Shown here: piece by piece, positions 281-59,912 of the stretch | How positions within the stretch are numbered: the stretch's first letter is position 1 | Layout of the letters: each line of letters starts with the position of its first letter | Assembly: GCA_951406725.2 (NCBI GenBank) | Contig: OX597833.1 | Coordinates: 58,962,001-59,026,000, forward strand | DNA length: 64,000 nucleotides | From: Octopus vulgaris | Taxonomy: Eukaryota | Reading direction: 5' to 3' | The notes under the pieces: generated by a model | The model's database searches: none | What the model saw: the letters and a program-made list of their open reading frames with translations, nothing else | What the model was told of the DNA's origin: nothing | Program-made: the position numbers and the translations under genes

Positions 281-685
281 GGTGCAGGAGTGGCTGTGTG
301 GTACGTAGCTTGTTTACCAACCGCATGGTTCCGGGTTCAGTCCCTCTGCGTAGCACCTTGGGCAAGTGTCTTCTATTATAGCCTCGGGCCGACCAAAGCC
401 TTGTGAGTGGACTTGGTAGACGGAAACTGAAAGAAGCCCGTCATATATATGTATATATATATGCGTGTGTGTGTTTGTGTGTCTGTGTTTGTCCTCCTAG
501 CATTGCTTGACAACCGATGCTGGTGTATTTACGTCCCCGTTACTTAGCGGTTCGGCAAAAAAGACCGATAGAATAAGTACTAGGCTTACAAAGAAAAAGT
601 TCTGGTGTCGATTTGCTAGACTAAAAAGCGATGCTCCAGCATGGCCGTAGTCAAATGACTGAAACAAGTAAAAGAGTAAAAGAGT
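281..685 (+). mobile_element. SINE family A (tRNA head, CORE-like segment, internal TA/TG microsatellite, CR1-like tail)
   Basis: A box TGGCTGTGTGG, B box GGTTCAGTCC, ACCTTGGGCAAGT segment, 3' end CAGCATGGCC..AGTCAAATGACTGAAAC + (AGTAAAAG)n. About 20 copies in the window. Confidence 0.9.
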
Positions 686-706
686 ATATATATATATATA
701 TATATG

Positions 707-3700
707 ATTGATTGATTGATTGATTGATTCTAGTTTCAGCTTATGAGCTGTGGCCATGCTGGGGCACCGCCATTTGGTGTTGCTACTTGGTTTCACTTCA
801 TGGAGGCTTTCTAGCAACTGCTATTTGGTGCATGAGAGAGTTCGATGCAGCTGCCCTCATCTGCCCCTCCTGCCGTGAAGTTGGTTCATCTGGGACACCT
901 GACAGGAAGAGATCCAGCTTCATTTTAAAGACATCTGTATCCACCCCATGCAGGTCTCTCAGGTTCTTCGGGAGGATATTGAAGAGCTGTGGGCCTCGGA
1001 AGCCCAGGCTATCACAGAATCTTGTCCTACATCTTGATGGCAGGTTTGGAGTCCTAGGCACCACGCAGTGGCGCCCAGTTCTGGCATTTGCGTAACTCTC
1101 GATGCCAAAGTTCAGGACACTTCCCTCCAGGATCTTCCAGATGTATATTATGGCATATCTTTCCCGCCTACACTCCAGGGAATATAATTTTAATCTCTTG
1201 AGTCTTTCCCAGTAGCTTACATTCTGCATAGAGGCTATCTTCTTTGTGTAGCTTCGTTGGATCGCCTCAAGTTCTGTGATCAACTTGACACTGGATGGTG
1301 ACCATAGCTGAGAGCAATAGTCAAAGTGGCTTAGGACAAGTGTCTTCCAGAGGACCATCATGGTTTCTTGTTCTCTTGTTCTAAAGGTTCTAAGAATCCA
1401 TCCAGCCAGCCGTCTACATTTCATTGTCAGTTTAGCAACATGTACATGAAAGGTCGCGTCATCACTCATGTGAATACCCAGGTCACGCACTGATTGTGCC
1501 TCTGGGATTGCAATCCCTCCGGGTCCAGTGTATTCATTGGGTATTGCATTCAGTTTTGCATGCTGATAGTATAAAGCTTGAAACTTTCCAGCATTGAACT
1601 GCATGCTATTCTTTTCAGCCCACTTGTATATTTCGTCCAGCTCACATTGCAGGTGTTTAGTGTCCTCAGGGTTCTGTATTGCCTGTGAAACTTTTGTATC
1701 ATCTGCATAACTTGTGATCGTGGCTCTCTGCGTGGCTGAGGGCATGTCTGAGAGGGCCATTATGAACAGTAGTGGTCCCAGAACAGTGCCCTGCGGAACA
1801 CCGCTCACTATTTGTGTGTTAATGGAGGTGGACCCATTGGCTACTACCACCTGACTTCTATCCTTCAGAAAGTCATGAAGCCATTCTCCCAGTTTTCCAA
1901 CTATGTTGAGATCACGCAGTTTGTGACATATCATTCCATGATCGACTTTATCAAAGGCCTTTGCAAAGTCGAGATATATCACTTCCACATTTGAGTGGTT
2001 GAGCAGCCGTTTCAGCACCCAGTCATAGTGTTGTAGGAGCTGAGTTAAACAGCTTCTCCCTGGTCGGAAACCATGTTGGGTGTCGGGCAGCAAGTCATTC
2101 TCTTCAAGGAAGGTGATCAGCTTCCTTCTGACTATTCGTTCCATGACCTTGCTGATGTGTGAGGTCAGAGAGATAGGTCTATAGTTCTTGGCTTCCGCTC
2201 TGCTACCTCCTTTATGAATGGGGCATATTTTACCTTCCTTCAGTTTTCCTGGAAGTTTGCCAGCTGCAAGGAAGCTCTGAAAGAGGAACTGCAGTGGTCT
2301 TGCTAGGACTCTCTTACATGCTTTTAGGAGGATTGCCGGGAATCCATCGGGGCCAGTAGCTGAGTCTGTTTTCATTTCATCTATAGCCTTGGTTACATCG
2401 TCTTCCTTTATATCGATGTAATCTATCGTCACCGCCTCTGATTTTAAATCTGCAGTGGTAAAAAAGTCAGTTGGATTGGTGATTTGGAGATGCCCAAGGG
2501 GTGGAGTGAAAACACTCTTGAATTGCTCATTCAGTATTTCACTTACCCTCATTGGTTTTCCTGTAAGTGTGCCATCCTTTTCGAGGAGTGGCCCTATTCT
2601 ACAGTGCACTGTAGCTGTTTCTTTGGCATACCTGTAGAAAGCTCTGGGGTTAGATTTTATGTTTTCTATAGCCCAGGCCTCTTTGTCTGCTCTTTCTTTT
2701 TCATGGGAGAGTTGCAGACATTTTTCGATTTCCAACAGTTTTATTTTTAGGCGGGACTTTTCACTGCTTTCAATCTGTTTGTTTAGGCGATTTGAAAATT
2801 TCGTACGCCGTCTCATTAAAATTTTCCTCTCTCTGGGGATTTTGTTCTTGTGTACAGTGGCCTTTCTCTCTGGGACACATTTGTAGCATATGGCTTGCAT
2901 TACAGACATGAATTGTTGAAGTTTCACGTCGATGTCTGGCGAGGAGAGACATTTAGGCCAGTTTTGTTTGAGGATCTCTTTCTCAATTTGTTTCCAGTTT
3001 GCCTTATGGTAGTTCAAGCTGGAAAGATTTTGAGGGTTTCTTGTAGGCTGCATGTCCGTGCTCTCTTTTGGCCCGTACATGGTCAGCTCTATCATGTTGT
3101 GATCCGAGAGTAGTGTCGGTGTCACTTTCACATTATGGATGAGATCCATGTCATTTGTGAAGCAGAGATCCAGTGTGTTACCTGCCCTGGTTGGTTGGAG
3201 TATTACCTGCTCCATGTACAGGGTGTTGATGAGGTTCAGGAGGGACCTCGCCTGTCCTCGTTCACATCTTGTCATTCCTGGGAGAGAAAGGCCCTCGGGC
3301 CATCTGACATTGGGCAGATTGAAGTCTCCCATAAGAAGCACACCTATGTGTTGTTCTAATGTGGTTAGAATTTCTTCTATTTTTATAAGGCAGTCTTCAA
3401 ACTTGCCCACATGGCTTGGGGCATCTGGAGGGCGATATGTAGCACACACAACTACATCAAGTTGCCTAATATGTACAATTAGTGTGTCACACACCGAGTT
3501 TGAGTATGACAAGAGGACCTGGGGTGTGAGGTCCTCACGGATGTACATAGCAACACCTCCATGACTCCTTTCTTTCCTGTCGGTCCGTAGTACAGCATAC
3601 TGTGGTATGTGTAACTCCGCATCTGCTATGTCCGGTTTCAGGTGCGTTTCTGTAAGTGCTATGCATAAGGCTTGATTGCATGCAACAAAGTCTCTCAGGA

Positions 3701-3726
3701 ACGGGATCTTTGTCCTGTTACTGAGT
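707..3726 (-). mobile_element. CR1-group non-LTR retrotransposon (LINE), 5'-truncated, with (ATCA)n 3' tail
   Basis: ORF2 with APE and RT domains, a short 3' UTR (730-797) and an (ATCA)n tail read as gattgattgatt on + (707-729). (TA)n flanks both ends. Confidence 0.93.
798..3725 (-). CDS. LINE ORF2: apurinic-type endonuclease + reverse transcriptase (N-terminally truncated)
   Basis: APE motifs IALTETHL, RTDR..R.HGGVA (read in frame upstream of the track's Met at 3548), MGDFN, LDL and SDH. RT motifs NYRPISL, QHGFR, YLDFAKAFDKV, GVPQGTVLGPLLF and YADD. CR1-type C-terminus FN.LP...FK.KLD. No stop codon from 3725 to 801. Confidence 0.95.
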   Translation of the reverse strand, partial: LSNRTKIPFLRDFVACNQALCIALTETHLKPDIADAELHIPQYAVLRTDRKERSHGGVAMYIREDLTPQVLLSYSNSVCDTLIVHIRQLDVVVCATYRPPDAPSHVGKFEDCLIKIEEILTTLEQHIGVLLMGDFNLPNVRWPEGLSLPGMTRCERGQARSLLNLINTLYMEQVILQPTRAGNTLDLCFTNDMDLIHNVKVTPTLLSDHNMIELTMYGPKESTDMQPTRNPQNLSSLNYHKANWKQIEKEILKQNWPKCLSSPDIDVKLQQFMSVMQAICYKCVPERKATVHKNKIPRERKILMRRRTKFSNRLNKQIESSEKSRLKIKLLEIEKCLQLSHEKERADKEAWAIENIKSNPRAFYRYAKETATVHCRIGPLLEKDGTLTGKPMRVSEILNEQFKSVFTPPLGHLQITNPTDFFTTADLKSEAVTIDYIDIKEDDVTKAIDEMKTDSATGPDGFPAILLKACKRVLARPLQFLFQSFLAAGKLPGKLKEGKICPIHKGGSRAEAKNYRPISLTSHISKVMERIVRRKLITFLEENDLLPDTQHGFRPGRSCLTQLLQHYDWVLKRLLNHSNVEVIYLDFAKAFDKVDHGMICHKLRDLNIVGKLGEWLHDFLKDRSQVVVANGSTSINTQIVSGVPQGTVLGPLLFIMALSDMPSATQRATITSYADDTKVSQAIQNPEDTKHLQCELDEIYKWAEKNSMQFNAGKFQALYYQHAKLNAIPNEYTGPGGIAIPEAQSVRDLGIHMSDDATFHVHVAKLTMKCRRLAGWILRTFRTREQETMMVLWKTLVLSHFDYCSQLWSPSSVKLITELEAIQRSYTKKIASMQNVSYWERLKRLKLYSLECRRERYAIIYIWKILEGSVLNFGIESYANARTGRHCVVPRTPNLPSRCRTRFCDSLGFRGPQLFNILPKNLRDLHGVDTDVFKMKLDLFLSGVPDEPTSRQEGQMRAAASNSLMHQIAVARKPP

Positions 3727-3874
3727 ATATATACATATTACTCTTTAACAAGAAGAGTGTTGATAGTAACTTCAAAGTTTTAGCCTTCCTTGGTGAGGGC
3801 TAATCAGGTAGAAACTTAGATGTCGCTGACAAAACTATTATTACTAAAGAATAATAACTATATAAGTGCATTTA

Positions 3875-4224
3875 TTCCATGTGTGTGTGTATGTATGTAT
3901 GCGTGTGTGTGTGTGTGTGTGTGTGTAAAACGTGTATGTGAATTTATATATATGTTTGTGTGTGAGCGTGGATGGGAATGTAAAGAGACGATGTAGAGAG
4001 AGTTTGCTTTCATTCATGATAAAACGCAACAAAAAAAAATTCAAATTCATATTTGTGTGTGTGTGTGTGTGTGTGTGTGTATTCTTTTTGTATGTGAGTG
4101 TGTACATGCGAGTAGATATATGCGTGTGTCTGTTCATGCGTACACATACGCACATGCATATACATACATGTATAGACAAATGTGTATGTACTTACACAAA
4201 CAAAGCTTTATATACGCATGTATG

Positions 4225-7744: not shown

Positions 7745-8385
7745 GCTGTAAAATATTCTTTTCAACTCTAGGCACAAGCCCCGAAATTTGGGGGAATATT
7801 AAATCGACCGCTGTACGCAACTCGTACTTAATTCATCGACACCAAAAGGACGAAAAGCAAAGTCGACCTCGGTGGAATTTGAAGTCAGAACGTAAAGACA
7901 GATGAAATACTGCTAAGCATTTCGAACAGTGTGCTAACGTTTCTCATTTTTTTATTGCCCACAAGGGGGCATAGAGGGGACAAACAAGGACAGACAAAGG
8001 GATTAAGTCGATTACATCGACTCCAATGCGTAACTGGTACTTAATTTATCGATCCCGAAAGGATGAAAGGCAAAGTTCACCATGGCAGAATTTGAACTCA
8101 GAACGTAAAGACAGACTGCCAAGAATTTCGCCAGGCGTGCTAACGTTTCTTATTTCTTTATTGCCCACAAGGGGCTAACTATAGATGGGACAAACAAGGA
8201 CAGACAAAGGGATTAAGTCGATTACATCGACCCCAATGCGTAACTGGTACTTAATTTAACGACCCCGAAAGGATGAATAGCAAAGTTGACCATGGCGGAA
8301 TTTGAACTCAGAAAGTAAAGACAGATGAAATACAGATAAGCATTTCGCCCGGTGTGCTAACGTTTCTGTCAGCTCGTCGCCCTCC
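7745..8385 (-). mobile_element. SINE family B (Meta-domain-like), tandem multimer of ~3 units
   Basis: Repeated reverse complement of GAGTTCAAATTCCGCC-GAGGTCGACTTTGCCTTTCATCCTTTCGGGGTCGATAAATTAAGTACC. Confidence 0.85.
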
Positions 8386-8703: not shown

Positions 8704-9792
8704 TTTTAGACGAATCGCTCACCCATTATCGTCCCACATTTTACACGAATCGCTCCCCCATTATCGTCCCACATTTTACACGAATCGCTCCCCCATTATC
8801 GTCCCACATTTTACACGAATCGCTCCCCCATTATCGTCTCACATTTTACACGAATCGCTCCCCCATTATCGTCCCACATTTTACACGAATCGCTCCCCCA
8901 TTATCGTCCCACATTTTACACGAATCGCTCCCCTATTATCGTCCCACATTTTACACGAATCGCTCCACCATTATCGTCCCACTTTTTACACGAATCGCTC
9001 CCCCATTATCGTCCTACTTTTTACACGAATCGCTTCCCCATTATCGTCCCACATTTTACACGAATCGCTCACCCCATTATCGTCCCACATTTTACACGAA
9101 TCGCTCCCCCATTATCGCCCCACATTTTACACGAATCGCTCCCCCATTATCGCCCCACATTTTACACGAATCGCTCACCCATTATCGTCCCACATTTTAC
9201 ACAAATCGCTCACCCATTATCGTCCCACATTTTACACGAATCGCTCACCCATTATCGTCCCACATTTTACACGAATCGCTCCCCCATTATCATCCCACAT
9301 TTTACACGAATCGCTCCCTAATTATCGTCCCACATTTTACACGAATCACTCCCCCATTATCGTCCCGCTTTTTACACGAATCGCTCCTCCATTATCGTCC
9401 CACATTTTACACTAATCGCTCCCCCATTATCTTCCCACATTTTACACGAATCGCTCCACCATTATCGTCCCACATTTTACACGAATCGCTCCCCCATTAT
9501 CGTCCCACATTTTAAACTAATCGCTCCCCCATTATCTTCCCACATTTTATACGAATCGCTCCCCCATTACAGTCCCACATTTTATACGAATCGCTCCCCC
9601 ATTATCTTCCCACATTTTATACGAATCGCTCCCCCATTATCTTCCCACATTTTATACGAATCGCTCCCCCATTATCGTCCCACATTTTACACGAATCTCT
9701 CCCGCATTATCGTTTCACTTTTTACATCAATCTCTCCCCCATTATCGCCCCACATTTTACATGAATCGCTCTCCCATTATCGCCCTACTTTT
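8704..9792. repeat. 35-bp minisatellite, ~31 copies
   Basis: Unit TTTTACACGAATCGCTCCCCCATTATCGTCCCACA arranged head-to-tail without spacers. Confidence 0.95.
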
Positions 9793-27879: not shown

Positions 27880-28189
27880 GGATACTGGAAAAAACAAGGA
27901 GAGAAACAAAGAGAGAAAAAAATGCGTGTAGTAGCTAACGATCTATCTTATTTGTTTCAGTCATTAGACTGCGTCTATGCTGGGGCATCATCTTGAATTT
28001 TAGCCGGACGAGTCGACCCCCAGTACTTATTTTATCGCTGTCTTTTGCTGAACCGCTAAGTTACGGGGAGGTAAACACACAAACACTGGTTATCAAGCGG
28101 TGGTAGGGCAAAACACAGACACAAAATCACACACACAGACATATATATATATATACATACATACATCCACACACACACACACACACATA

Positions 28190-28535: not shown

Positions 28536-29589
28536 CGGGGAAATGTTTATTACAGAAAACCATCAAGAAAATTTCTTACAGAAATACGTGCGTGTGTGTG
28601 TGTATATATATACAATCACAAGTGTGTATATATAGTTACATATACACTCATGTACATGCACATGTGTATATATGGTTGCATACACACACACACAGATGCG
28701 TACACATGTACAAACACACAGTCGGTGTTCTCAAGTGTTTTCTTGACTTCTCAAATTAAAATCAATAAAACAGTAAGGTTACAATATGGCGGAATATATT
28801 TAGATCTCCCTCACCAAGTCTTTTCCCCACTCCTCATTTGTGTGTATGAGTGTGTATACACACACGCACATATATATACATACACACACACATATATATA
28901 CATACATACATATATACATACACACACACGCATATATATATACATACACACACACACACATATATATATATATACATACACACACACATATATATACATA
29001 CATACATATATACATACACACACACACATATATATACATACACACATATATATACATACACACATATATATACATACACACATATATATATATATATATA
29101 TACATACTCACACACACAAATATATATATACATACACACACACAAATATATATATATACATACACACACACACAAATATATATATATACATACACACATA
29201 TATATATATATATATGTATACATACACACACACACATATATATATATATACATACACACACACACAAATATATATATATACATACACATATATATATATA
29301 TATATGTATACATACACACACACACACATATATATATATACATACACACACATATATATATACATACACACACACACATATATATACATACACACACACA
29401 CATATATATATACATACACACACACACACATATATATATATACACACATACATACACACACACACATATATATATATGATGTATGTACGTAATCTTGTAA
29501 TTTAAAAAAAAACACTTCACACAAACCACATCTGAACTTACAAAAAATCATACTATTCTCTTACGTCTTAGAACTAATAATAGGTTTGT

Positions 29590-30030
29590 TTTCAAATTTT
29601 GGCACAAGTCAGCAAATTTAGGGAAGTGGTTAAGTCGATTACATCGGACCCAATCCTCAGTTGGCACTTATTCTATCGACCTCGAAAGAATGAAATGCAA
29701 AGTCGACCCCTGCGGAATTTGAACTCACAACTCACAACGTGAACAAAGACAAAATGCCGCTAAGCATTTTGCCCGACGTGCAACTGGTTCCCTCGTCGCC
29801 TTAATGATAATAACGGCTTGAAATTTTGCCACATGGGCAACAATTTTGCTGAAGAGGATGAGTCGATTACATCAATTCCAGCGTTCAACTGGTACTGTTT
29901 ATCGAAGAGGGTGAAAGGTAAAGTCGACCTCGGCGGAATTTGAACTCAGAACGTAAAGATTGACGAAATCTTTACGGCGGCTAATCATTTGACCCGGCAT
30001 GCTAACGACTCTGCCAGCTCACCTCCTTAA
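29590..30030 (-). mobile_element. SINE family B dimer (older, alternative tail)
   Basis: Two diverged GTCGATTACATC...AAAGTCGACC...GGAATTTGAACTC units. Confidence 0.8.
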
Positions 30031-30363
30031 TAATGATAATGAATGATGATTTCTTTTCATTGGCTACAAGGGCCCAGCATATTGAAGATTATTCAAGGAT
30101 GGAAAGCAAACGCTCAAAACGAATGTGTGAGGGTGCATCGAGTAAAAATAGATAAACAAAACAAGATTATAACAACAACGTCTAACAAGAACAATAATTC
30201 GCTAGTAGAGAAGAAAAACCTTCCCGAGTAATTTTAAGGGAAACCCCCCACGGAAATGCTTGGGTTTCTCTGTCACATCCAAGTGCCCCACCTCCTCGTT
30301 TCTTTATTCCTGATTAGAAAGCCATATACAGTGTCGGCACGGTCAGCTTTACCGATCTCATTG

Positions 30364-30903
30364 CAAATCTTGCTAGAAGGGCAGCAATTTTTAGGGAGGA
30401 GATGAGTCGATTACATCGGGCCCCAAATCTTGCTAGAAGGGCAGCAATTTTGAGGGAGGAGATGAGTCGATTACATCGGGCCCCAAATCTTGCTAGAAGG
30501 CCAGAAATTTTTAGGGAGGAGATGAGTCGATTACATCGGGCCCCAAATCTTGCTAGAAGGGCAGCAATTTTTAGGGAGGAGATGAGCCGATTACATCGGG
30601 CCCCAAATCTTGCTAGAAGGGCAGCAATTTTTAGGGAGGAGATGAGTCGATTACATCGGGCCCCAAATCTTGCTAGAAGGGCAGCAATTTTTAGGGAGGG
30701 GATGAATCGATTACATCGGACCCCAAATCTTGCTAGAAGGGCAGCAATTTTTAGGGAGGAGATGAGTCGATTACATCGGGCCCCAAATCTTGCAAGAAGG
30801 GCAGCAATTTTTAGGGAGCAGATGAGTCGATTACATTGGGCCCCAAATCTTGCTAGAAGGGCAGCAATTTTTAGGGAGGAGATGAGTCGATTACATCGAC
30901 CCC
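30364..30903. repeat. 60-bp tandem array x9 derived from the SINE B 3' end
   Basis: Unit CAAATCTTGCTAGAAGGGCAGCAATTTTTAGGGAGGAGATGAGTCGATTACATCGGGCCC; the last unit runs into a SINE B body (30900-30985). Confidence 0.92.
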
Positions 30904-31381
30904 AGTATTCAACTGGTACTTGTTTTATCAACTCCGAAAAGATAAAAGGTAAAGTCGACCTCTGCGGAATAAGTCGACCTCGGCAGAATAGCAACAATAA
31001 CATTAATAATATACACATGTACATCATACATATTTATACACATGCATACATGTATCTATTTAAATAACTATATATACAGGCATATTCACGTATGCGTTTG
31101 TGCGCATGCGTGTGTATGAGTGCGTGTGTGTTTGTAATTAGTCTCATTATTTCTCCTCCCCGTCTCTTTAAGTCCCCCTCCTCGTAACTCTGTAGCGCAA
31201 TTATCCTCCTCTCCACTGAATATTTCCCTATTTCCGTTCTCATCGGAACACAACCCTCTCTCCCCGGCTACGAGCAATTGTTATTTTCTAAGACATCAAT
31301 ATATTATTCAATCACAGACTCACTTTCCATCTCAAATATCCCACATCCATCATATAGGACGAACCACTATACTCTCTGTTT

Positions 31382-35380: not shown

Positions 35381-35547
35381 CGCGCAGGAGTGGCTGTGTG
35401 GTAAGTAGCTTGCTTACCAATCACATGGTTCCGGGTTCAGTCCCGCTGCGTGGCACCTTGGGCAAGTGTCTTCTACTATAGCCTCAGGCCAACCAAAGGC
35501 GGTGCTCCAGCATGGCCACAGTCAAATGACTGAAACAAGTAAAAGAG
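35381..35547 (+). mobile_element. SINE family A, head fused directly to tail
   Basis: Junction ...ACCAAAG|GCGGTGCTCC, a deletion at an AAAG microhomology. Confidence 0.85.
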
Positions 35548-37331: not shown

Positions 37332-37485
37332 TTATCCCTCAAAACTGTGTCTCATTAGGCCGGACAAAAAGAAGTCGAAAGATGCCAAGTCTAGGCTGTT
37401 TGGTCGATGGGAGACGCTGACCAGTTCGATTCGCTGATTGCATGATTTCTTGCCAAAGATGCGTGTGGATGCGTATTCTTGTAGG
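37332..37485 (-). pseudogene. Decayed mariner-type transposase fragment
   Basis: HRPNSLDLASFDFFL resembles the mariner HPPYSPDLAPSDFFLF motif. Confidence 0.5.
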
Positions 37486-37491
37486 GGAATA

Positions 37492-38258
37492 GGCGGCGAG
37501 CCGGTAGAATCGTTAGCACGCCGGGCGAAATGCGCAGCCGTATTTCGTCTGCCGTTACGTTCTGAGTTCAAATTCCGCTAAGGTCGACTTTGCCTTTCAC
37601 CCTTTCGGAGTCGATAAATTAAGTACCAGTTACGCATAGGGGTCGATATAATCGACTTAAACCGTTTGTCTGCTCTTGTTTGTGCCCTCTGTGTTTATCC
37701 CCTTGTGGGCAATAAAGAAATATATATATATATATATGCTGAAAATTTACATATTTTTAAGGCGGTGAACTGGCAGAATCGTTAGCACGCCGGGAGAAAT
37801 GCGTAGCCGTATTTCGTCTGCCGTTACGTTCTGAGTTCAAATTCCGCTAAGGTCGACTTTGCCTTTCACCCTTTCGGAGTCGATAAATTAAGTACCAGTT
37901 ACGCATAGGGGTCGATATAATCGACTTAAACCGTTTGTCTGTCCTTGTTTGTGCCCTCTGTGTTTATCCCCTTGTGGGCAATAAAGAAATATATATATAT
38001 ATATGCTGAAAATTTACATATTTTTAAGGCGGTGAGCTGGCAGAATCGTTAGCACGCCGGGAGAAATGCGTAGCCGTATTTCGTCTGCCGTTACGTTCTG
38101 AGTTCAAATTCCGCCGAGGTTGACTTTGCCTTTCATCCTTTCGGGGCCGGTAAATTAAGTACTAGTTACGCACTGGGGTCCATATAATCGACTTAAACCG
38201 TTTGTCTGTCCTTGTTTGTCCTCTCTGTGTTTAGCCCCTTGTGGGTAGTAAAGAAATT
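37492..38258 (+). mobile_element. SINE family B tandem trimer
   Basis: Three near-identical units with the linker (AT)nGCTGAAAATTTACATATTTTTAA, flanked by a CGTATTCTTGT duplication. Confidence 0.9.
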
Positions 38259-38427
38259 CGTATTCTTGTGGGAAATGTGGTTCGTTTTCAGGACAGGAAA
38301 ACGAGTTACTCTATTAGCATATGCAATTTGGACGACCTATGTCTGATAATAAAAAGTTATGCGTTCTCTTGCCTTGCTTTTTGTGCAACATTTGCATCAG
38401 TTACAAATTGTGAATAATACCCAGATG

Positions 38428-38595
38428 ACGTTCTGAGTTCAAATTCCGCCGAGATCGTCTTTGTCTTTCATCCTTTCTGGGTCGATAAATTAAGTACCGG
38501 CTACGCACTGGGGTCGATATAATCTACTTAATCCCTTTATCTGTCCTTGTTTGTCCCCTATATGTTTAGCCCCTTATGAGCAATAAAGAAATAAA
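38428..38595 (+). mobile_element. SINE family B, 5'-truncated
   Basis: acgttctgagttcaaattccgcc...caataaagaaata. Confidence 0.85.
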
Positions 38596-38794
38596 TAATA
38601 CCCATATGAAATTTAAGTCGAAAACAATTTATACACACCACAGTATCACTCGTCAATATGTAAATACCAAGAGAAATACTAAAGCAAGTTATCTTCCTAA
38701 GTAATATGTCAACCATTCCGCTTTTTTACTATCATAATAATCTTCTCGCGAACTGCTATTACAATAATAAATAAGGGAGTCTCTCTCTCTCTCT

Positions 38795-39191: not shown

Positions 39192-39647
39192 TGACTTAAT
39201 TCCAAATACTACGACCCCCTTCATATAACAGCCGTGTAAAACAAACCTTCCTTTAGCAGTAAATGAACAGATTAACGTTTTTAACCATCACCGTTACAGG
39301 TAAAACTGTAGATGCGAGAATTTTATAAAACCCAGCAACAATACTTAGCTACACGATGAGAGCAAAGAGATAAATGTGATATATCTCTCCTGAAAAAAAA
39401 AAACGAAAGCGGATTAAATGTTCCCACACGTCAGCATATAGAACAAACCCTCCAGGACATCGGGTGAAATTATCTCAGTTGGAAAAGGAAGAATTATGGC
39501 ACTTAACGATGCAGAGTAGGATGCTGAGTGAATTCCCAGACCTGGGTTGACTAAGTGAAAACAGCGGAAGAGAAAAAATTATGAAAATCAGCAGTACATA
39601 TACTAAAATTATGAAAATCAGCAGTACATATACTAAAATTATGAAAA

Positions 39648-39662
39648 TCGGCAGTACATATT

Positions 39663-39695
<33 letters not shown>

Positions 39696-59841: not shown

Positions 59842-59912
59842 TGACAGCCACGGGACTCGAACCCGCACCCCTCAGATAACGGCTGAGTATTTTACCATTA
59901 ATCTAGACGGTC
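59842..59912 (-). pseudogene. tRNA-like sequence (GTT/Asn-like anticodon), pseudogene or SINE head
   Basis: GACCGTC TA GATTAATGGTAAAATA CTCAG-CCGTTAT-CTGAG GGGT GCGGG-TTCGAGT-CCCGT GGCTGTC A; acceptor mismatch and C33 in place of U33. Confidence 0.65.

What the first reader, a model, noticed from the sequence alone, without database searches (positions are those of the whole stretch)
621..797. LINE, dominant SINE and U6 chimera share a 3' stem-loop with compensatory changes
Seen: SINE A ends GGCGGTGCTCCAGCATGGCCGC-AGTC-AAAT-GACT-GAAAC. The LINE ends GGCGGTGCCCCAGCATGGCCAC-AGCT-CATA-AGCT-GAAAC. The U6 chimera has GGTGGTGCGCCAGCATGGCCGC-GGCC-TTCG-GGCT-AAAAC. The hairpin sequence changes but pairing is kept, and the variable T/C/G base sits in the loop of TGC-NCCA-GCA. 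Each has its own terminal repeat (AGTAAAAG, ATCA, TTTAAGGA). Known: stringent LINEs (CR1/L2) recognise a 3' stem-loop that partner SINEs borrow. Inference: this CR1 clade mobilises SINE A, and the covariation defines its RNA recognition signal. Here the LINE and a SINE A lie tail-to-tail, forming an imperfect inverted repeat.
Basis: partly seen in the sequence, partly recalled or inferred. Interest (0 to 1): 0.7.

Follow-up and report, generated by a model that had tools for sequence, protein, structure and literature searches.

The report
Octopus SINE borrows two-hairpin LINE tail
In this probably octopus genome, a very common short jumping repeat and a stray copy of U6 RNA end in nearly the same 39-letter tail as a long jumping gene, a tail predicted to fold into two hairpins that likely let the passengers borrow the long element's copying enzyme, which is a new example of a well-known partnership.

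Summary
A 5'-truncated EN+RT LINE (about 975 open codons, closest named relative from Argonauta), 16 SINE A tails and one U6 chimera share a 39-nt tail (19 matches, 0 expected). The tail has two predicted hairpins. Hairpin 1 (G·G mismatch, NCCA loop) differs at only 1-2 of 20 bases. Hairpin 2 varies freely with pairing kept. On these three elements alone covariation is marginal (2 pairs). It firms up with metagenomic relatives at 40-49% protein identity: an octopus-only model ranked three of their 3' UTRs first, and a two-hairpin descriptor fits 9 of 19 in-clade 3' ends versus 0 of 38 outside (partly circular). The likely mechanism is stringent tail recognition, with loop 1 as identity and hairpin 2 as shape. 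The partner is this LINE clade, not shown to be this exact family. Precedents exist: CR1/CORE-SINE tails with compensatory changes in bivalves, and U6-L2 chimeras in platypus. I did not find the octopus pairing or the clade-wide two-hairpin tail in ten paper searches. Earlier scan notes did not report this LINE; one notes an ORF1-only element with a SINE A tail and no partner. Verdict: new member of a known kind.

The parts
281..684 (+). SINE A copy: tRNA-like head with A/B-box-like motifs (by eye), CORE-like middle (label recalled), (TA)n(TG)n stretch, shared tail, (AGTAAAAG)x2.5
   Evidence: 5.8% from the majority of 8 full copies
627..665 (+). SINE A tail: hairpin 1 (627-646, 3 changes in the 39 nt against the family majority), hairpin 2 (648-661), AAAC
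685..705 (.). (TA)10 run, the target into which the LINE inserted; TATATATACTC (minus strand) occurs at both LINE junctions
705..732 (-). LINE terminal repeat (ATCA)x6, preceded by TAGA
733..771 (-). LINE 3' tail: hairpin 1 (752-771, loop CCCA), hairpin 2 (737-750, loop CAUA), AAAC
   Evidence: pair probabilities 0.84-0.99 in 140-nt context; z = -2.3
798..3726 (-). LINE ORF2, open for about 975 codons, 5'-truncated in the endonuclease N-terminus; APE endonuclease + RT (YADD at residue 677)
   Evidence: read cover ends near 3780
2778..2867 (-). basic patch between EN and RT (residues 291-320, IP-R/K-x-x-R/K-I/L core kept in 15 of 15 aligned proteins): candidate tail-binding region, by analogy
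   Evidence: analogy PMC4176376
39571..39638 (+). two extra 30-nt units at the 5' junction of the U6 chimera (flank plus start of the U6 piece, repeated)
39639..39745 (+). U6 snRNA match (Rfam RF00026, 105.7 bits); the first bases do not match the model, so the U6 piece is 5'-truncated; ends in its T run
39751..39789 (+). third form of the tail: hairpin 1 (loop GCCA), 4-bp hairpin 2 with a C(UUCG)G loop, AAAAC
   Evidence: z = -0.5, not more stable than shuffles
39790..39815 (+). terminal repeat of the U6 chimera, about three imperfect ATTTTAAGG units; no target duplication of 7 bp or more found

Best explanation
SINE A and the U6 chimera carry a 39-nt tail of the same type as this LINE's, and they were likely copied into the genome by the ORF2 protein of this LINE clade (this family or a close sister), which is predicted to bind a two-hairpin RNA tail. 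Shown: shared sequence, separate terminal repeats, an open EN+RT frame, a repetitive LINE family. Predicted: hairpin 1 (3 bp, G·G mismatch, G·U-led 4 bp, NCCA loop) and hairpin 2 (4-5 bp, free loop), then RAAAC and a short tandem repeat. Inferred from zebrafish L2 experiments: the basic patch between EN and RT grips the stems generally and reads loop 1 specifically; the endonuclease nicks DNA and reverse transcription primes at the terminal repeat. SINE A likely took the tail once by template switching and spread under its own tRNA-type promoter. The U6 chimera is likely a single dead-end event, by template switching or RNA ligation, from a sister LINE with its own hairpin 2 and repeat. The tail-to-tail layout likely arose when the LINE inserted antisense into the (TA)n run after a SINE A copy.
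For: Tail shared by 16 SINE-type copies, the LINE and the U6 chimera. Both hairpins form at pair probability 0.84-1.0 in 140-nt context for LINE and SINE. Model R1, built only from 7 window tails, searched over 28 loci (80,676 bases): its top 3 of 12 hits are the 3' UTRs of L031 (E 1.5e-4), L003 (6.5e-3) and L002 (0.17). A sequence-only alignment of 3 window tails and 4 relatives gives 97% of cells paired and 5 of 10 pairs with two-sided changes; 0 of 500 shuffles reach the score, and slid controls pair 43% at most. Model R2's top held-out hit is the L004 3' UTR (E 0.005). The descriptor fits 11 of 19 in-clade 3' ends (9 after I drop two AT-rich hits) against 0.2 expected from shuffles, and 1 of 38 outside (an AT-rich repeat); other mismatch types fit 1 of 19 each. 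All such loci lie in one clade with the window LINE, support 0.998. Loop 1 is NCCA in all three window elements but differs among relatives. The LINE is repetitive in two DNA runs: 114,861 and 60,840 contigs laid on 560-4000 (SINE tail included), with cover along the whole ORF. Stem swaps are tolerated and loop swaps are not in ZfL2-1 (PMC4176376, passages).
Against: LINE and SINE A differ at 8 of the last 19 tail bases and in the terminal repeat, so the direct partner may be another family. R1 missed 15 of 19 in-clade 3' ends and R2 recovered only 1 held-out 3' end below E 1; R2's second hit (L032, E 0.19) is not at an ORF2 end. The descriptor missed 8 of 19 in-clade ends and was written after I had seen these UTRs. 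The four relatives in the covariation count were chosen because they align, and the shuffles ignore relatedness. The U6 tail is no more stable than its shuffles (z -0.5). A shared TA target preference was not significant: 5 of 16 tails against 17.7% background, p = 0.14. No binding or mobilisation data exist here.
Confidence: 0.72

Rival explanations
1. The hairpins are selected for another step (3' end formation, stability, or positioning the terminal repeat for priming), not for ORF2 binding; the tail is still clade-derived.
For: Covariation shows structure, not its partner. Hairpin 2 loops share nothing (AAAU, CAUA, UUCG) and hairpin 2 is not found in L004.
Against: Position just before the terminal repeat and an internal mismatch match tested RT-recognition stem-loops (PMC5135761 passages; PMC4176376). 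A pol III-type SINE and a U6 chimera both keep the whole module.
Confidence: 0.14
2. The tail is a relic: SINE A took it from this clade long ago but is now copied by another LINE (Tx1, RTE or other) that ignores it.
For: SINE A's hairpin 2 and repeat differ from this LINE's. Earlier scan notes describe active Tx1 and RTE families in this genome (unchecked).
Against: Young SINE A copies (1.8-7.6% from majority) keep both stems, and no position in either stem is fixed as a break among 16 tails. The LINE clade is present with an open frame and many near-identical contigs. The second SINE family in the window has a different tail.
Confidence: 0.1
3. The U6 element is one copy of a U6-headed SINE family (SINEU-like) rather than a one-off chimera.
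For: Its tail is 10-11 changes from both other tails, with its own repeat and a UUCG loop, and it holds only about 4 bases of non-U6 sequence before hairpin 1.
Against: One copy in 64 kb. The U6 piece ends in its T run before the tail, which would stop pol III (established knowledge), and snRNA promoters lie upstream (PMC4494074, passage). Platypus has 40 U6-repeat chimeras, mostly 5'-truncated U6 plus a short L2 piece (PMC4476161, passages).
Confidence: 0.08
4. The similarity or the pairing is chance.
For: The three-sequence covariation alone is marginal.
Against: 19 matches against 0 expected; held-out model hits at 3' UTRs.
Confidence: 0.03

Closest known systems
Bivalve BivaCORE-SINE1 and BivaV-SINE2 with CR1-14_CGi (Nishihara 2016, PMC4824008, passages; Matetovici 2016, PMC4758252, passages; Martelossi 2024, PMC11481361, passages and one supplementary figure)
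   Same: Mollusc tRNA-type SINEs sharing a 35-61 bp tail with a CR1-group LINE; stem-loops with compensatory changes were already reported.
   Different: The printed bivalve CR1-Zenon, CR1, Nimb and L2 tails do not resemble this tail by eye. Octopus SINE partners are not covered in the passages read.
Stringent L2 elements UnaL2, ZfL2-1, ZfL2-2 (Hayashi 2014, PMC4176376, passages; review passages in PMC5135761)
   Same: 3' stem-loop with an internal mismatch just before a short terminal repeat, no poly(A); basic region between EN and RT.
   Different: One stem-loop there, two adjacent hairpins here; tested there, only predicted here; different clade.
U6-L2 and U6-Mon-1 chimeras of platypus, U6-L2/RTE/SINE chimeras of Anolis, one U6-CR1 candidate in turkey (Doucet 2015, PMC4476161, passages); U6/L1 by RtcB ligation (Moldovan 2019, PMC6789731, abstract and opening text)
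   Same: 5'-truncated U6 joined to a short stringent-LINE tail with little or no target duplication.
   Different: Invertebrate host; the U6 5' junction is tandemly repeated; the donor family was not identified.
Octopus OR1/OR2 SINEs (Ohshima and Okada 1994; seen only as cited in PMC4824008 and PMC4758252)
   Same: Octopus tRNA-derived CORE SINEs; SINE A may well be one of them.
SINEU of crocodilians (Kojima 2015, PMC4494074, passages)
   Same: snRNA-derived head on a retroposon.
   Different: U1 or U2 heads and true families; here U6 and one copy seen.

Membership tests
APE-type non-LTR retrotransposon (LINE) | APE endonuclease plus RT in one ORF | tested here: met
   PF14529, PF03372, PF00078; best PDB matches L1 ORF2p
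APE-type non-LTR retrotransposon (LINE) | 5' truncation, 3' terminal repeat, short target duplication, many copies | tested here: met
   the duplication lies in a TA run, so its length (8-11 bp) is ambiguous
CR1 group, named clade (CR1, CR1-Zenon, L2, Crack, Daphne) | RT phylogeny with named reference elements | not testable with these tools
   tree of 93 unnamed sequences only; the CR1-group label is recalled from sequence character and the lack of poly(A)
Stringent LINE/SINE pair | SINE 3' end homologous to LINE 3' end | tested here: met
   30 of 39 identical, 19 of the first 20
Stringent LINE/SINE pair | conserved stem-loop before the terminal repeat | tested here: met
   (predicted structure)
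Stringent LINE/SINE pair | ORF2 needs the stem-loop and mobilises the SINE in trans | not testable with these tools
   needs binding and retrotransposition assays
tRNA-derived CORE SINE (OR1/OR2) | tRNA-derived head | tested here: inconclusive
   no tRNA match for one head by Rfam and none of the heads called by ARAGORN; A/B-box-like motifs by eye
tRNA-derived CORE SINE (OR1/OR2) | CORE domain and identity with OR1/OR2 sequences | not testable with these tools
   reference sequences not in the texts or supplements read; CORE likeness is recalled
U6/LINE chimeric pseudogene | U6 joined co-linearly to a LINE 3' end | tested here: met
U6/LINE chimeric pseudogene | flanking target duplication | tested here: inconclusive
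   longest shared word between the flanks is 6 bp and not at the junctions; platypus chimeras have 1-9 bp or none
SINEU-like family | many copies with one shared junction | not testable with these tools
   no genome held; one copy in the window

The most novel reading that the evidence does not exclude
A whole invertebrate LINE clade uses an undescribed two-hairpin tail in which a G·R-mismatch stem is the shared handle and loop 1 is a family address. This clade is the missing engine of the dominant octopus SINE and of several other passengers (further SINE forms, an ORF1-only element, U6 chimeras), which gives a natural lock-and-key series for decoding how ORF2 picks its RNA.
Probability: 0.4. 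Interest if true: 0.5.

Novelty: new member of a known kind. Interest (0 to 1): 0.32.

Why it matters
SINEs dominate the octopus repeat landscape (PMC9068888, passage), so naming the enzyme source of a major octopus SINE helps explain how that genome grew. A review passage states that no experiment had confirmed a 3' stem-loop role for such invertebrate pairs, although it also lists the silkworm element SART1 as tested (PMC5135761). This tail is short, has natural stem swaps and lineage-specific loops, and sits beside an almost complete open ORF2, so the loop-as-address model can be tested outside fish. The principle itself is old and would not surprise a specialist.

Tried and rejected
No whole genome is held, so the donors of the SINE A and U6 tails and the copy number of the U6 chimera could not be sought. 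The tail pattern found 0 matches in viral contigs and 1 in bacterial genomes (Chitinimonas), which I take as chance and did not examine. The protein scan of viral contigs confirmed 0 of 119 stretches. Shared TA-microsatellite targeting was not significant (5 of 16, p = 0.14; second SINE family 3 of 10); TA precedes 7 of 11 heads but may belong to the SINE itself. The first folding survey placed several termini wrongly and found no repeat for 6 of 27 loci (tail z mean -1.4 against -0.1 in ORFs), so I rely. My structure string had hairpin 2 out of register; one search replaces it. The first tree run failed at printing; one search replaces it. The 14 hairpin labels include five set by eye (L004, L014, L018, L019, L020); later folds gave two hairpins for L014, L019 and L020, while the L018 window began too late to test. 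Some of the 38 outside loci may not be true 3' ends (L051, L074). A function for the inverted repeat was rejected: 69% match, a by-product of insertion. Look-ups of earlier notes by sequence and by words found nothing. Ten paper searches found no octopus LINE/SINE tail study, no invertebrate U6/CR1 chimera and no covariation study of this tail. The 1994, 1996, 1997 and 2005 Ohshima/Okada papers, Repbase, SINEBase entries, unreadable supplements (file 1 of PMC4758252 and of PMC4824008, the FASTA of PMC11481361) and all main figures were not seen and may hold it. PMC11838501 (abstract) and PMC9223172, PMC10294476 (passages) added only background.

Full report
Setting. The window is repeat-rich animal DNA. 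No genome is held for it. The LINE protein's closest relatives are unnamed at 89% and 69-70% identity, then an Argonauta hians protein at 64%, then many at 45-50%, so an octopod host is inferred.

Observation. The tail pattern occurs 19 times in 64 kb and never in 100 shuffles. Sixteen are whole SINE A-type tails, one ends the LINE at 733-771 (minus) and one follows a U6 match (Rfam 39639-39745) at 39751-39789. Over 39 nt the three forms differ pairwise at 9, 10 and 11 positions, only 1-2 of them in the first 20. Each has its own terminal repeat.

The LINE. The frame 798-3737 (minus) is open for 979 codons and holds APE endonuclease and RT domains. Its match to P0001 starts about five residues in, so the copy is 5'-truncated near 3726. 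The word TATATATACTC lies at both junctions, which fits insertion into the TA run after the SINE with a short duplication or microhomology. In two DNA runs 114,861 and 60,840 contigs lay on 560-4000, with cover along the whole ORF that ends near 3780. Many contigs are 95% or more alike and some only 80-85%, so sister families exist. Summed contig depth is no copy number, but the SINE tail bin is about ten times the ORF bins. Loose ends at 628 and 632 (1,888 and 2,056 contigs at 632) show at least one more upstream body joined to the same tail. Two runs guessed to be RNA also hold LINE contigs; expression is not shown.

Structure. LINE and SINE tails fold into two adjacent hairpins (z -2.3 and -3.0; the copy at 620-680 -2.1). 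The U6 tail folds the same way but no better than its shuffles (z -0.5). Hairpin 1 is 3 bp, a G·G mismatch, 4 bp led by G·U, and loop NCCA. Hairpin 2 has 5 bp (4 in the U6 tail) and unrelated loops. On 7 window tails, 2 pairs of hairpin 2 change on both sides; 29 of 500 shuffles reach that number and 0 of 500 reach the covariation score. A simple null for the LINE/SINE pattern gives 0.048. That is suggestive only.

Relatives. A metagenome scan returned the best 80 of 543 confirmed loci. In a midpoint-rooted FastTree of 93 sequences the window LINE groups with 23 loci at support 0.998; no named references were available, so the clade is unnamed and 'CR1 group' is my recalled label. Nineteen of the 23 include a 3' end. 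Test 1, held out: a model built from window tails only, run on 28 loci, ranked the 3' UTRs of L031, L003 and L002 first (E 1.5e-4, 6.5e-3, 0.17), found L001's at E 4.9 and missed the other 15. Test 2: a plain MAFFT alignment of the three window forms with L003, L031, L002 and L001 gave the same two hairpins by RNAalifold. Of 70 cells 97% pair, 5 of 10 pairs change on both sides (3 in hairpin 1), no shuffle of 500 reaches the score, and slid controls pair 43% at most. These four were picked because they align, and the shuffles ignore kinship. Test 3: a second model found L004's 3' UTR first among 32 held-out loci (E 0.005), L010's and L014's only above E 2, and nothing else useful. Test 4: a descriptor (3 bp, G·R mismatch, 4-7 bp, short spacer, second hairpin, AA) fits 11 of 19 in-clade 3' ends against 0.2 expected, and 1 of 38 outside against 0.9. 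Three of these hits are AT-rich and misplaced, which leaves 9 of 19 and 0 of 38. Other mismatch types fit 1 of 19 each. The descriptor was written after I saw the UTRs, so this test is partly circular. Across the 9 loci and 3 window forms the second inner pair takes all four Watson-Crick forms, the mismatch is G·G in 11 of 12 and the first inner pair is G·U in 10 of 12 (read). Loop 1 varies by lineage: NCCA in the window, CCCA in L009 and L019, UCC or ACC in L003 and L031, and 7-nt purine-rich loops in the related L005, L075 and L020.

Mechanism. In zebrafish ZfL2-1 a stem swap is tolerated and a loop swap is not, and a basic region between EN and RT binds the tail (PMC4176376, passages). This ORF2 has its most basic 30 residues at 291-320, with a core kept in all 15 proteins aligned. 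I infer that ORF2 grips the stems, reads loop 1, and primes at the terminal repeat. SINE A likely gained the tail once and spread. Eight full copies lie 1.8-7.6% from their majority, so it was active recently, as was the LINE. Because hairpin 2 and the repeat differ, the direct donor may be a sister family. The U6 element has a truncated and tandemly repeated 5' junction, an intact U6 3' end, about 4 further bases and then the tail. This matches platypus U6-L2 chimeras (PMC4476161, passages), and RtcB ligation is an alternative route (PMC6789731, abstract and opening text). A U6-headed SINE family is not excluded, since copy number could not be measured, but the T run before the tail argues against it.

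Comparison with print. Tails shared by mollusc SINEs and CR1-group LINEs, with stem-loops and compensatory changes, are published (PMC4824008; PMC4758252; PMC11481361). The bivalve tails printed look different from this one. Octopus OR1/OR2 are cited as CORE SINEs, and SINE A may be one of them, but I could not read the original work or the sequences. Ten searches (listed under Tried and rejected) did not find the octopus pairing or a clade-wide two-hairpin tail; subscription papers and Repbase were not searched. Earlier notes of this scan (unchecked) describe Tx1-linked SINEs, a U6/RTE chimera and an ORF1-only element with a SINE A tail whose partner was not found. This LINE clade is a candidate for that partner, which I did not test.

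Verdict. New member of a known kind; interest 0.32.

Noticed in passing
window 560-674, loose ends in runs X1, X2, X4, X7: A different upstream body (ending in AAAACCCTTCAAGG) joins the same tail in about 2,000 contigs per DNA run: a further SINE family or subfamily on this tail. The older copy at 27954-28164 (minus) may be related.
   Followed up: partly
window 40163-40210 (+) and 35381-35545 (+): A tail with no SINE body before it, and a SINE head of about 115 bases joined straight to the tail.
   Followed up: no
window 7798-8325, 14400, 18627, 37400-38600, 60800, 63021: A second abundant SINE (Nin/Deu-like, label recalled) with a different tail, often in tandem or nested in its own head, as earlier scan notes describe.
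   Followed up: no
window tail positions 12-20 and the U6 match: A 9-base word of hairpin 1 also occurs inside U6 itself; probably coincidence, though it could favour U6/tail pairing or switching.
   Followed up: no
L032:123-161 (+): A two-hairpin-like match (E 0.19) far upstream of that locus's RT match, possibly the tail of another element.
   Followed up: no
L008:4117-4150 (+): A hairpin-1-like stem with a G·G mismatch before a (CAGTT)n repeat, about 130 bases past the ORF stop and without hairpin 2.
   Followed up: no
window 59842-59912 (-): tRNA-Asn(GTT) match, 44.4 bits; gene or pseudogene not decided.
   Followed up: no
window 41684-42157 (-): A 157-codon frame that looks like the C-terminal GIY-YIG part of a Penelope-like element (recalled).
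   Followed up: no
window 8704-9782, 29500-31000, 43900-46300: A 35-bp minisatellite of about 31 units and two other tandem arrays.
   Followed up: no
window 12700 (+) and 33744 (-): A short repeat, present twice, that also folds as two hairpins with a G·A mismatch; AT-rich and unrelated in sequence to the tail.
   Followed up: no
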